This document shows, piece by piece, positions 3,001 through 6,000 of a stretch of DNA of 64,000 nucleotides. The stretch's first letter is position 1; each line of letters begins with the position of its first letter. The stretch is from IMG/VR virus record IMGVR_UViG_3300046047_000272; one strand, written 5' to 3'. The position numbers were made by a program. Source of the DNA: a virus (taxonomy: Duplodnaviria; Heunggongvirae; Uroviricota; Caudoviricetes).

Positions 3001-6000
3001 AGGCTCTGATCTTACCGGATCAAAGTTCGCTCTGTGGAAAGCTGATGATGGAACTGATACGACGGCTATCATCGGTAAGGACGGAGCTACTGGATGGTCA
3101 AAGGTTGCTGAGACTACATCGAATCCTAAGGTTGTTTTCAGTGGATTGGGCACAGGAACATATCGTCTAATTGAGGTGCAAGCGCCAACAGGATATCTCA
3201 CACCAAGTGGCCAGTGGAATATCGTCATTACGTCAACAAATACGACGATTACTGGTATAGCCAATCAGGGATCGATGCCAAACGCCTTCAAGAAGAACGA
3301 TGATGGCTCGTATAGTCTGTCCAATACGGCTATATCGACACTTCCTTCATCAGGATCAATCGGCATCATAGCTATGATGATCATTGGTACCCTGATGATT
3401 GGTGGAAGCGTCATCGTCTTCAGGAAGAGGACATCCTCAGTAACATCCTGAAGATAGACACGCCGTATCGCATATCCGTGCGCCCGTGATATAATTATGG
3501 TATACACGGGCGCACCATTATCATGGAGGCATTATGAAAGATCAGTACTACAAGCCACAATATCATGGCAAAGCTGATAACGACTACGTCGAACGATTCT
3601 GGAAGACTCGTGAAGAATACCCAATCAACCTGCCACTGATTCTCGTAGGAGCCAACGAAGCTCTTGAAGAGGTATCTCACAAGAATGTTGATGATTACTC
3701 ACCAAGAGATCAACAAGCTGATTAAGGAACCAATATATCAAGAAGTCATCGAAGACGCCATTCGACAGGATGCCTGACCTGATATATTGAATATGTTAGA
3801 TAACATTCTGAATGTTCGTTGAAGGAGGAGTAGATGACCAGTAAACCATCAATCTACACTCGCTCCTACAAGCTCACGGCCCCAGCTAACGCGGGTAAAA
3901 TCAACAGGATCCGCTCTCTAGTAAGAAAGTACCAGCATGGTCTCACCGTCCTAGTAGCCAGCATGGATCAGCGTCTCATCCAGGACGCCAAGCCACCCAA
4001 CAAGTACACTGACTCGCGAGCCATCCTTAACCTCTCCGCGAGGCAGACTCAGTCCTGCTACGCGCAGGCAAGAGAATCATACTCTTCCTGGCTCCGCTCC
4101 CTACAGAAGACTGTGAAACGGATTATCACGCTCAGTACCCTCGACCCGCACACGAAGGACGTCCTCTACAGGCTGAATTATCACATGGCGTGGTACGCGA
4201 AGATCTACGAGCTCGACTGGATGGTCGCTAGAGATGGGGAGCTGGTCCACCCCACCACAGCGGAACGAAGAGGTGGTAAGACGACGCTTATACCCGTGAG
4301 TGATGAGCATCTCTGGCTCATGCGTCGCATTGTGAAGCACGCTCGCAGGACGAACCATAGACCCGACTTGTCACACGAGACCACGATGAAGATGGACGCG
4401 AAGATCGCTGTCCTAGAGGAGTCCAGGGGGACGGGTTTCTCATGGTGGCTGCGGACGAGCACGCTGGATAGGGGGCAACCCGTACTCATACCAGTAAAGG
4501 ATAACCGATTCTTCGCCAGGAAGCGCGTTGGCGGCAGACTCCTGAATCATGTTCAACTCGGCGTCGTCGATGATAGGCTATCCGTGTCCCTCGTGGTAGA
4601 GAAGCCCTGCGCGCCGCTCCGAGGAGATGGTGACGTGATCGCCTTTGATTGGGGTCTCGTGAGCCTGTTCACACTCCCGGACGGGCGTATGCTCGGGAGA
4701 TCAACCCTGGCTGAGTTGAAGAGGCTGGACGCTCTTCTCATGGATCGTGTTAAGAAGCTCAGCAGTAAGGGTTTAAGGCTCAGGGGAGATTCCTGCTATG
4801 ATTCATTAGTGTCCCGGTCGCGCAGTCTCATGGAGAACGAGATCGGGCGTCTACTGAATATTCTGGCAGCCAACGCGCGGGAGATCATTGTTGAGGACTT
4901 GGATTTCAGGGGTGGCGGACTCTCAAAGAGGATGAATCGTATCCTGTCAAGGTCGGGTCGCGGGTTCTTGAATCGGAAGCTGCAAGCGTTACACGAGGAA
5001 AAGGGCATTATCGTAACTAAAATTGATCCCGCGTACACGTCGCAGGAGTGCTCCGCGTGTGGTTACGTCTCGAAGAGGAATCGCAGGGATCAGGCTAGCT
5101 TTAAATGCGGGTGTTGTGGACGCGCGCTGAACGCGGACGTGAATGCTGCTCGCATCATCGGAGGACGTTCCTCCGATGTGTTACCCAGGGGTCGGGGCGC
5201 GGCCCATCGTAAAACACTCTATGACGTGCTGGAGAACCGTCACCGTGCTTCGTGTGGTGCATGGCTGGCACGCCACACGACGGCCGGCTTGTAGGTCCGG
5301 TTGGTACATCCGAGAGGATGTGCGTGGTCTTCTTTTGTTTGATACAATTGATAACAAGAAAGGAGAGACTATGATCATGCCCATCGTATGCAGGACAATA
5401 CGAGATCTCATTAAGTATGACCCAATATCACTGTTACGTATCAGCTGTGATGATAGGACATACCAATATATCCTATCAGCTCGTAACGACCAGGATATTA
5501 TTGACGCCTTACTCGCACATAGGGACATTCGTGGCTGCGTATGGATTATACAGGAAATGAGGTCAAGACAGGACATTGACGCGAGAACTCATCGCATCAT
5601 TGAGAATCTGTCCGTCAATCTCATCAAATTAGAGCATAATAGAAATGTTGATTACGTTCTGAACATATATGGCTATCTCAAGCCATATCAGAGAAGACTT
5701 CATCGATTATCCTTACCATGGCGTCATACTGTTTCGATACCATCAAATCTTGGTGATGTGAGTACTTTCATGGTCGAGCAACAATGGATATCATCACTTG
5801 ATCTTACCAATGACCTACCATCGTATCCACGTCTTGTCGCTAAAGTCTGTGATGTCCTCGATGATATAGGAACATGTATCCTACATCATGCGGATCAAGT
5901 AGAGATCACACGTCCATCACTTGATTTACAACCACCACAGCCATTACGATTATGAGAACCCTTGAAGGAGATTACCTCATGCAACAACCAATGCTCTTCA

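What the first reader, a model, noticed from the sequence alone, without database searches (positions are those of the whole stretch)
3770..5345. High-GC TnpB-only IS element inserted between the adhesin gene and a nucleotide-metabolism block, with a candidate omega-RNA region
A 486-aa TnpB with an intact RuvC triad and zinc ribbon sits in a roughly 1.5-kb island of about 58% GC inside a roughly 42% GC genome, indicating a recent foreign insertion.

No TnpA is present, so it is IS1341-like. The 3' end (about 5150..5340) contains a hairpin (ccggcttgtaggtccgg) where an omega RNA scaffold would be expected, with a potential guide derived from the flank beginning around 5340.
Basis: partly seen in the sequence, partly recalled or inferred. 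Interest (0 to 1): 0.55.

Follow-up and report, generated by a model that had tools for sequence, protein, structure and literature searches.

The report
Transposase-less IS607 TnpB module in phage
A large bacteriophage genome carries an intact RNA-guided nuclease gene (TnpB) with its probable guide-RNA scaffold, left over from an IS607 transposon that has lost its transposase gene and left end; this kind of element is well known, so the find is ordinary apart from a few details.

Summary
ORF 3834-5294 (+) encodes an intact 486-aa TnpB: D272/E354/D435, CxxC...CxxC, and a confident model that matches Cas12f/TnpB structures. It sits in the highest-GC stretch of the window (54.6% against 45.2 ± 1.9%).

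The interpretation needs correcting in four places.
- **Not IS1341-like.** It is a 5'-truncated IS607-family element. The closest relatives (74% aa) are complete 2.2-kb IS607 copies with a serine-recombinase TnpA. The window keeps only the last 38 nt of tnpA (3740-3777) and has no left end.
- **Right end at 5372, not ~5340.** Three independent insertion sites in relatives fix it at ...ACTAT, so the predicted guide starts at 5373.
- **A probable omega-RNA scaffold at ~5149-5372, not a proven one.** Conservation runs to the last base of the element. Synonymous divergence is halved over the last 60 codons. Five pairs carry compensatory changes in the close clade. A covariance model built only from distant relatives places its best window hit there, but weakly (12.4 bits).
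- **Context.** The window is part of a ~491-kb phage contig that carries two more 83-85% identical TnpB paralogs. The downstream block is RNA repair, not nucleotide metabolism.

Full and TnpB-only IS607 copies already occur in Thermus phages. Verdict: new member of a known kind, low-to-moderate interest.

The parts
3740..3777 (+). Relic of the 3' end of an IS607 serine-recombinase gene (tnpA): the last ~10 codons, VIEDAIRQDA, plus the stop TGA at 3775-3777. The deletion junction lies just upstream, between about 3726 and 3739.
   Evidence: It aligns to the end of the Resolvase-domain tnpA of L002, L022b, L024 and L025. BLAST homology to the complete 2,213-bp IS607 of L025 begins at element position 586, which is window 3740. 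tblastn with the TnpA of L002 finds nothing else in the window. Coordinates were checked.
3778..3833 (+). The tnpA-tnpB intergenic spacer of the ancestral element, with the tnpB ribosome-binding site GGAGG at 3824-3828.
   Evidence: It is conserved with the spacers of L002, L022b and L024. The sequence was read.
3834..5294 (+). tnpB, 486 aa, intact. RuvC residues are D272 (4647-4649), E354 (4893-4895) and D435 (5136-5138). The zinc ribbon C406...C428 is encoded at 5049-5117.
   Evidence: The AlphaFold model has pLDDT 88.4. Foldseek matches Cas12f and TnpB structures over the full length at E = 1e-13 to 1e-14. dN/dS to relatives is 0.13-0.15.
5149..5372 (+). Predicted omega-RNA scaffold. It overlaps the last ~146 nt of tnpB and runs 78 nt past the stop codon to the right end of the element.
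   Evidence: Conservation with relatives continues to the last base. dS in the last 60 codons is 0.56-0.71, against 1.29-1.41 for the rest of the gene. RNAalifold and pair counts on 4 close sequences give 97.7% of cells paired and 5 pairs with compensatory change. A covariance model built only from distant relatives gives an end-to-end match at 5149-5375, 12.4 bits, the best hit in the window. No Rfam family matches.
5154..5180 (+). Helix 1 of the scaffold, CAUCGGAGG-ACGUU-CCUCCGAUG, inside the coding region.
   Evidence: Two compensatory pairs separate the window from L002/L022b/L024. The same hairpin around the GACGUUC loop appears with a different stem sequence (GUCGAGA/UCUCGAC) in all Mycobacterium-type relatives.
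5281..5303 (+). The tnpB stop codon lies in its loop.
   Evidence: It aligns with helix 7 of the distant-relative structure (CCACGGC...GCCCGUGG, loop ...AGGU...), which has 4 compensatory pairs.
5304..5323 (+). Penultimate hairpin, GUACAUCC-GAGA-GGAUGUGC.
   Evidence: In the 16-sequence family alignment this helix has up to 9 sequences with both sides changed at a single pair.
5328..5364 (+). Terminal stem-loop of the right end.
   Evidence: Two compensatory pairs (for example U-A in the window against G-C in relatives). The analogous terminal hairpin in distant relatives has 4 compensatory pairs.
5368..5372 (+). Right terminus of the element, ...ACTAT. The TAT is shared with the left junction of complete copies and is the putative recombination core.
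   Evidence: L002, L022b/L025 and L024 share sequence up to ...GTTACTAT and then diverge into three different flanks. Left junctions of complete copies read ...G|TATTGTCACC. Distant relatives end in ...AACTGT, and their left junctions read GGTGT.
5373..5392 (+). Predicted guide segment of the omega RNA (GATCATGCCCATCGTATGCA; its length is assumed to be 16-20 nt). It coincides with the start of the downstream phage gene.
   Evidence: The position follows from the mapped right end and from the published IS607 arrangement, in which the scaffold ends at the right-end core dinucleotide. No second match with 1 mismatch or fewer exists in the window. This part is inferred, not shown.
5360..5365 (+). 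Shine-Dalgarno-like AAGGAG for the downstream ORFan (ATG at 5371 or 5377). It lies inside the right end of the element.
   Evidence: It falls in the only stretch where the window's right end differs by an indel from relatives: AAGAAAGGAGAGACTAT against AAAGAAGTTACTAT.

Best explanation
Window 3740-5372 is the 3' three-quarters of an IS607-family insertion sequence of Actinomycetota type that landed in a ~491-kb phage genome. It later lost its left end and almost all of its serine-recombinase gene (tnpA).

What remains is a self-contained tnpB-omega-RNA module:
- the ancestral tnpA-tnpB spacer with its ribosome-binding site;
- an intact, selectively maintained tnpB;
- a ~224-nt structured scaffold (about 5149-5372) that overlaps the tnpB 3' end and stops exactly at the element's right terminus.

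The transcript is expected to read on into the flank. A 16-20-nt guide would then be copied from 5373 onward.

Shown here: the IS607 ancestry, the truncation, the position of the right end, the integrity of the protein and purifying selection on it, and conservation with some covariation in the RNA region.

[quoted passage not shown] The module cannot transpose, because it has no left end and no TnpA. It could still persist in the way TnpB normally protects its transposon. That means cutting genomes that carry the uninterrupted target next to a TAM (by analogy about 5'-(G/T)GTAT) and being copied in by recombination, here during co-infection with related phages.

Confidence is about 0.9 for the identity and anatomy, about 0.6 that the ribonucleoprotein is functional, and about 0.3-0.4 for homing as the current role.
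For: Identity of the protein:
- It has a TnpB/Cas12f fold and motifs.

IS607 ancestry:
- The closest relative with DNA available (L002, 74% aa) has a 191-aa Resolvase-domain gene 36 nt upstream of tnpB.
- L022b, L023b, L024 and L025 have the same arrangement.
- 14 of the 19 Actinomycetota chromosomal loci have a significant TnpA match (E < 1e-10) directly upstream; some of these matches are partial or split.

Truncation:
- The window aligns to positions 586-2205 of the 2,213-bp reference element.
- A tnpA relic sits at 3740-3777.
- No left-end sequence occurs anywhere in the window.

Right end:
- Three different flanks follow ...ACTAT in relatives.

Selection:
- dN/dS is 0.13-0.15, including against L026, another TnpA-less copy.
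- Three full-length 486-aa paralogs lie on the source contig.

RNA:
- dS is halved in the last 60 codons.
- In the close clade, 97.7% of cells are paired and 5 pairs are compensatory, against 2 or fewer in slid controls.
- The family-level structure has 21 compensatory pairs, reached by 0 of 500 shuffles.
- The model built from distant relatives puts its best window hit at 5149-5375, end to end.

Mechanistic template:
- In IS607, the omega-RNA scaffold ends at the right-end core dinucleotide, the TAM equals the TnpA target motif, and TnpB-driven homing has been demonstrated (10.1101/2023.11.20.567912).
Against: - There are no expression, processing or cleavage data.
- The covariance-model hit is weak. 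It scores 12.4 bits with E about 0.02 over 98 kb, random window hits reach 9.1 bits, and L002's own 3' region reaches only 8.3 bits.
- The close-clade covariation rests on 4 sequences from about 3 lineages, and the structure was derived from that same alignment.
- Threading onto the model's pairs does not discriminate. A spurious reverse-strand hit also satisfies 54 of 64 pairs.
- The TAM is guessed from only two left junctions in the close clade.
- No 'empty' allele could be found. The flanking gene is an ORFan whose only hit is itself.
- The DNA of the two paralogs could not be retrieved.
Confidence: 0.7

Rival explanations
1. One reading: a complete, recently inserted tnpB-only insertion sequence of the IS1341 type, still mobilisable in trans by a TnpA.
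For: No tnpA ORF lies in the window. The element is a sharp GC island. The right end is intact.
Against: The relatives are IS607 elements with a serine recombinase, not IS200/IS605 elements with a Y1 transposase. A 38-nt tnpA relic shows that tnpA was deleted rather than never present. The first 585 bp of the reference element, including the left end, are missing, and no left-end sequence occurs anywhere in the window. None of the 120 best TnpA relatives is recorded on a 491,046-bp contig.
Confidence: 0.05
2. An inert fossil: the module no longer does anything and has simply not yet decayed.
For: It cannot transpose, because the left end and tnpA are gone. No functional data exist. The element's GC has not drifted toward the phage value (GC3 67% against 36-52% in neighbouring genes), which fits a fairly young arrival.
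Against: The 1,461-nt ORF is uninterrupted and every catalytic and zinc-binding residue is present. dN/dS is 0.13-0.15. The right end is conserved to the last base. The same phage contig holds three full-length 486-aa copies that have diverged by 15-17% without truncation. A second TnpA-less copy in another low-GC context (L026/L027) is also intact. Pairwise dN/dS cannot isolate the period after tnpA was lost.
Confidence: 0.2
3. A domesticated phage tool: the TnpB-omega-RNA has been taken over for a phage function other than self-propagation, such as cutting host or rival DNA or regulating the adjacent gene.
For: There are multiple TnpA-less copies in one large phage. The guide would cover the translation start of the downstream ORFan, and that gene's ribosome-binding site lies inside the right end. 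Phage-encoded TnpB derivatives with host-directed guides (TldR) are published (listed).
Against: The RuvC triad is intact, unlike the nuclease-dead TldR repressors. The predicted guide is simply the adjacent flank, as in any ordinary insertion, and it has no other good match in the window. No evidence of guide reprogramming was found.
Confidence: 0.1
4. A miniature CRISPR-Cas12 effector (type V) rather than a transposon nuclease.
For: Structural and sequence matches include Cas12f, CasPhi and CasLambda, and large phages are known to carry such systems (PMC12607003).
Against: No CRISPR-like repeat array occurs anywhere in the 64 kb. The gene is embedded in IS607 sequence with a tnpA relic and a defined right end.
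Confidence: 0.01

Closest known systems
IS607-family insertion sequences (serine-recombinase TnpA plus TnpB plus 3' omega RNA), for example the Clostridium botulinum IStron/IS607 system studied in 10.1101/2023.11.20.567912
   Same: Relatives have the gene order tnpA(serine recombinase)-tnpB. There are no terminal inverted repeats. A short identical core sits at both junctions: TAT in this clade and TGT in distant relatives. A structured RNA overlaps the tnpB 3' end and finishes at the right-end core. The scaffold end (ACTAT) resembles the left-junction motif ((G/T)GTAT) but differs from it, paralleling UCGG against TGGG in the published system.
   Different: The window copy has lost tnpA and the left end. 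Its TnpB is long (486 aa) and divergent: NCBIfam IS607_TnpB scores 37.5 bits against a cut-off of 350, and guided_TnpB scores 86 against 100. The core is A/T-containing rather than GG. No group I intron is present.
IS607-type TnpB genes in Thermus phages TMA and YS40_Isch
   Same: These are the best phage matches, at 31-32% identity over 90% of the protein and of similar length (488-489 aa). TMA carries resolvase plus TnpB. YS40_Isch carries TnpB alone, annotated 'IS607 family transposase ISCARN1'. Both full and TnpA-less forms are therefore already on record in large phages.
   Different: They are only distantly related in sequence, come from a different host phylum, and sit in phages of about 150-160 kb. 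Whether the YS40_Isch copy keeps a tnpA relic was not examined.
IS1341-group (tnpB-only) members of IS200/IS605, such as those related to ISDra2
   Same: They have a single tnpB ORF, an omega RNA at the 3' end and a guide taken from the right flank. The overall TnpB fold is the same (8h1j and 8exa are hits).
   Different: The ancestry is different. IS1341 elements have IS605-type ends that are processed by a Y1 transposase. This element's relatives use a serine recombinase, and the copy still contains a piece of that gene.
TldR (nuclease-dead TnpB-like repressors encoded by temperate phages)
   Same: It is a phage-borne TnpB homologue without a transposase.
   Different: TldR lacks RuvC catalytic residues and carries reprogrammed guides. 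Here the triad is intact and the guide is the native flank.

Membership tests
TnpB (OMEGA RNA-guided nuclease, ancestor of Cas12) | A split RuvC domain with the D...E...D triad | tested here: met
   D272 and E354 are invariant and D435 is at least 90% conserved across 36 family members. The codons were verified in the sequence.
TnpB (OMEGA RNA-guided nuclease, ancestor of Cas12) | A zinc-ribbon / target-nucleic-acid-binding domain inserted in RuvC | tested here: met
   PF07282 matches at E = 1.6e-16. The four cysteines are invariant.
TnpB (OMEGA RNA-guided nuclease, ancestor of Cas12) | A full-length WED-REC-RuvC fold | tested here: met
   The model has pLDDT 88.4. Foldseek gives probability 1.0 and E = 1e-13 to 1e-14 to Cas12f and to ISFba1 and ISDra2 TnpB, with 460-510 aligned columns and TM-scores of 0.42-0.59. 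By sequence alone only the C-terminal half is recognised.
TnpB (OMEGA RNA-guided nuclease, ancestor of Cas12) | A cognate omega RNA encoded at or overlapping the 3' end of the gene, with the guide taken from the flank | tested here: inconclusive
   Conservation, reduced dS, compensatory pairs and a weak hit from the covariance model of distant relatives all point to 5149-5372. There is no RNA evidence and no Rfam family.
TnpB (OMEGA RNA-guided nuclease, ancestor of Cas12) | RNA-guided, TAM-dependent DNA cleavage | not testable with these tools
   This needs biochemistry or interference assays.
IS607 family insertion sequence | A serine-recombinase TnpA gene upstream of tnpB | tested here: not met
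   Only a 38-nt 3' relic remains (3740-3777). Relatives do have the gene. The window copy is therefore a derivative of the family, not a complete member.
IS607 family insertion sequence | Both transposon ends (left and right) present | tested here: not met
   The right end is present and intact to 5372. The left end is absent locally and from the whole window.
IS607 family insertion sequence | No terminal inverted repeats, and a short identical core at both junctions | tested here: met
   No terminal inverted repeat was found. TAT sits at both junctions of complete close relatives, and TGT at both in distant ones. For the window itself only the right junction can be seen.
   The ancestry is IS607 (serine recombinase) and the left end is missing.
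Type V CRISPR-Cas (Cas12f-like) | An adjacent CRISPR repeat-spacer array | tested here: not met
   No array was found in the 64 kb.
TldR (nuclease-dead TnpB-like repressor) | Loss of the RuvC catalytic residues | tested here: not met
   The triad is intact.

The most novel reading that the evidence does not exclude
The ~491-kb phage lineage keeps three diverged, transposase-less TnpB-omega-RNA modules as RNA-guided homing or competition nucleases. During co-infection they would cut related phages that lack the insertion and be copied into them, doing the job that protein-only homing endonucleases do in T4-like phages. At this locus the element's right end would also have been co-opted to supply the ribosome-binding site of the adjacent ORFan.
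Probability: 0.2. Interest if true: 0.55.

Novelty: new member of a known kind. Interest (0 to 1): 0.3.

Why it matters
If the module is active, it adds a compact (486-aa) and sequence-divergent TnpB from the little-studied Actinomycetota IS607 branch. Its scaffold is mapped (about 224 nt), its scaffold/guide boundary is exact, and a TAM can be tested, which is of modest use for surveys of miniature genome editors.

Biologically, this locus together with L026/L027 and Thermus phage YS40_Isch shows TnpB-omega-RNA units outliving their transposase inside phage genomes. That raises the testable idea that TnpB alone can maintain itself in phage populations by homing. None of this changes current understanding, because TnpB genes, IS607 elements and tnpB-only derivatives in phages are all already described.

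Tried and rejected
- **DNA of the source contig and the two paralogs (P0002, P0003; also P0004).** Exact-protein look-ups found nothing on record. IMG/VR scans with peptide and DNA patterns found nothing. The single metagenome scan returned only an unrelated weak locus, L001. Whether the paralogs have a TnpA or left end, and what their guides are, stays unknown. The only indirect hint is that none of the 120 best TnpA relatives sits on a contig of that length.
- **An empty-site comparison.** The downstream ORFan has no homologue other than itself among 5.8 billion proteins. The window has no megablast match in the phage collection.
- **Rfam.** No family matched in 3600-5600 even at E = 10, so there is no known omega-RNA model and no group I intron or IStron.
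- **The covariance model of distant relatives with default filters.** It missed the window. With filters off the hit is real in position but weak in score.
- **Counting satisfied model pairs on the fitted alignment.** This does not discriminate, because a spurious hit scores the same.
- **An alternative perfect 10-bp hairpin in the window (5250-5281).** It is broken by 1-2 mismatches in L002 and L024, so I preferred the RNAalifold pairing.
- **A second guide target in the window.** None was found with 1 mismatch or fewer.
- **Promoter and terminator scans.** Counts were no higher than in shuffled sequence.
- **CRISPR, TldR and IS1341 readings.** All were rejected; see the membership tests.
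Full report
**1. What is there**

- The window is phage DNA.
  - It encodes a ribonucleotide reductase large subunit and an rIIA-like protein.
  - It also encodes a PNK/RNA-ligase and a HAD_SAK_2 protein.
  - It carries an array of seven tRNAs.
- A protein 100% identical to the ORF in question is recorded once, on a 491,046-bp JGI contig.
- ORF 3834-5294 (+) is 486 aa.
- By sequence only its C-terminal part is recognised. Pfam PF07282 matches at E = 1.6e-16. NCBIfam guided_TnpB scores 86 bits, below its cut-off of 100, and IS607_TnpB scores 37.5 bits. 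PDB sequence hits cover only residues ~240-467.
- An alignment of 36 relatives shows D272, E354 and all four zinc-ribbon cysteines invariant, and D435 at least 90% conserved.
- An AlphaFold model built on that alignment is confident (pLDDT 88.4). It matches Cas12f and TnpB cryo-EM structures over its whole length, with E = 1e-13 to 1e-14 and probability 1.0. The protein is an intact TnpB.
- The GC island is real but milder than stated. The element is 54.6% GC and the ORF 56.2% (GC3 67%), against 45.2 ± 1.9% for same-size windows. The maximum for the window falls on the element.

**2. Ancestry: IS607, not IS1341**

- The family is Actinomycetota-based: Mycobacterium, Bifidobacterium, Arthrobacter and Xylanimicrobium.
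- In 14 of the 19 chromosomal loci fetched, a significant TnpA (serine recombinase) match (E < 1e-10) lies directly upstream; some of these matches are partial or split.
- The closest relatives with DNA available (74% aa) are complete elements with a 191-aa Resolvase-domain TnpA followed by TnpB. These are L002 and L022b, L023b, L024 and L025.
- The L025 copy measures 2,213 bp from left end to right end. The window aligns to its positions 586-2205 at 74% nucleotide identity, starting at window 3740.
- Window 3740-3777 is the last ~10 codons and the stop codon of tnpA, followed by the conserved tnpA-tnpB spacer.
- Nothing resembling the left end (TATTGTCACCAGTAGTCG...) occurs anywhere in the window. 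tblastn with TnpA finds no other remnant.
- The element is therefore a 5'-truncated IS607 derivative. Lacking both a left end and a transposase, it cannot move by transposition.
- Another TnpA-less copy, L026/L027, is 77% identical in protein and has low-GC flanks. It retains a 5' relic of tnpA instead (VKLSKYAEVIGVSRQTATITMV*). Loss of tnpA has therefore happened independently.

**3. The right end and the guide**

- L002, L022b/L025 and L024 share sequence through ...GTTACTAT and then diverge into three unrelated flanks. The window's equivalent is ...GAGACTAT, ending at 5372.
- Complete copies begin ...G|TATTGTCACC on the left, so TAT is present at both junctions. This is as expected for the crossover core of a serine recombinase.
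- More distant relatives end in ...AACTGT and begin GGTGT.
- In the published IS607 system, the omega-RNA scaffold ends with the right-end core. The TAM is the related but distinct motif at the left junction, TGGG against UCGG (10.1101/2023.11.20.567912).
- By analogy the scaffold here ends at 5372 and the guide starts at 5373 (GATCATGCCCATCGTA...). The TAM would be about (G/T)GTAT, distinct from the self sequence ACTAT. The TAM is an inference from only two left junctions.

**4. The candidate omega RNA**

*Within the close clade (window, L002, L022b, L024):*
- Nucleotide conservation rises toward the 3' end and continues 78 nt past the stop codon to the terminus.
- dS over the last 60 codons is 0.56-0.71, against 1.29-1.41 for the rest of the gene.
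- RNAalifold gives nine helices spanning 5148-5364. Of the pair cells, 97.7% are paired, and five pairs carry compensatory changes. Controls with slid partners give 38-44% paired and at most two such pairs.
- This rests on four sequences, and the structure was derived from the same alignment.

*At family level:*
- Twelve distant relatives (35-39% aa identity to the window) give a ten-helix structure with 21 compensatory pairs, reached by 0 of 500 shuffles.
- A covariance model built only from those twelve places its best hit in the window end to end at 5149-5375 (+). The score is 12.4 bits, with E about 5e-4 for the 2.2-kb search and about 0.02 for 98 kb.
- The margin over noise is small. Random hits reach 9.1 bits, and L002's own region reaches only 8.3 bits. 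Counting satisfied pairs on the fitted alignment does not discriminate.

*Helix by helix:*
- The correspondence is visible in the plain alignments.
- The GACGUUC hairpin at 5154-5180 recurs with a different stem in all relatives.
- The hairpin at 5304-5323 corresponds to the most strongly covarying helix of the family.

Rfam has no matching family. I regard the scaffold as probable, not proven.

**5. Is it maintained?**

- dN/dS between the window copy and every relative is 0.13-0.15. This includes the other TnpA-less copy.
- The source contig carries three full-length 486-aa paralogs at 83-85% identity, with near-identical C-terminal tails.
- None of the 120 best TnpA relatives (at least 58% identity) is recorded on a contig of that length. 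This weakly suggests that all three copies lack a transposase.
- These facts argue against a dead fossil. They do not isolate selection after the loss of tnpA.

**6. Most likely mechanism**

- The module probably still produces a TnpB-omega-RNA nuclease programmed by its own right flank.
- It cannot transpose, so the remaining way to persist is the documented TnpB function of cutting unoccupied alleles and being copied in by recombination.
- For a phage this would operate during co-infection.
- This step is inference, and no unoccupied allele could be found.

**7. Comparison and novelty**

- Thermus phage TMA carries resolvase plus a 489-aa TnpB of this type. Thermus phage YS40_Isch carries the TnpB alone.
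- TnpB genes in megaphages are already reported (PMC12607003).
- No CRISPR array, no intron and no loss of catalytic residues point to anything beyond an IS607 remnant.
- It is a new member of a known kind. The points of modest interest are the mapped scaffold/guide boundary, the independent relics of tnpA loss, the three diverged paralogs in one very large phage, and the downstream gene's ribosome-binding site lying inside the element's right end.

Noticed in passing
window 5360-5379: The Shine-Dalgarno-like AAGGAG (5360-5365) and the start codon (ATG 5371 or 5377) of the downstream 194-aa ORFan sit inside and directly against the IS right end. This is the only place where the window's right end differs by an indel from relatives, so the element may have been adapted to drive translation of the phage gene. 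JGI called this gene from GTG 5245 (236 aa), which overlaps tnpB. The protein's only hit in the whole database is itself.
   Followed up: partly
window 281-3451: The phage encodes a 1,056-aa surface protein with an LPXTG cell-wall anchor and with SpaA and SdrD-B domains. This points to a Gram-positive host, which fits the Actinomycetota origin of the IS.
   Followed up: no
window 5952-8632: This is an RNA-repair cassette: a HAD_SAK_2 phosphatase-like protein (5952-6647) and a fused P-loop kinase / T4 Rnl1-type RNA ligase (7157-8632).
   Followed up: partly
window 61736-63931: An array of seven tRNA genes (Pro-CGG, Pro-UGG, Asn, Lys-CUU, Lys-UUU, His, Leu-UAA). ARAGORN finds seven and Rfam finds six at gathering score.
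   Followed up: no
window 3476-3516: A perfect 11-bp inverted repeat (gtgcgcccgtg...cacgggcgcac) lies between the adhesin stop codon and the small ORF 3534-3725. It is probably the adhesin gene's terminator. The consensus terminator scan did not call it.
   Followed up: no
L022 1462-6904 (also L023): Two different IS607 elements lie about 1.2 kb apart in a 58% GC human-metagenome contig: TnpA plus a 483-aa TnpB, and TnpA plus a 485-aa TnpB. The first has its own, different 3' structured region, which the family covariance model hits weakly (15.3 bits).
   Followed up: partly
L026 1515-1617 and L027 (same element): A TnpB-only copy, 77% identical in protein to the window's, lies downstream of a NUDIX-like gene in low-GC DNA. 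It keeps the first ~21 codons of tnpA (VKLSKYAEVIGVSRQTATITMV*), the opposite relic to the window's. Both contigs break exactly at the tnpB stop codon, as expected if the 3' RNA region is repeated in that genome.
   Followed up: partly
LR745208.1 (hit H4): A 485-kb uncultured phage record contains three places that match this TnpB at about 26% identity. It is another very large phage with several TnpB-like genes.
   Followed up: no
window 3928-3975: Tandem Repeats Finder reports 1.9 copies of an imperfect 25-nt unit inside the 5' part of tnpB. This is probably a chance match.
   Followed up: no
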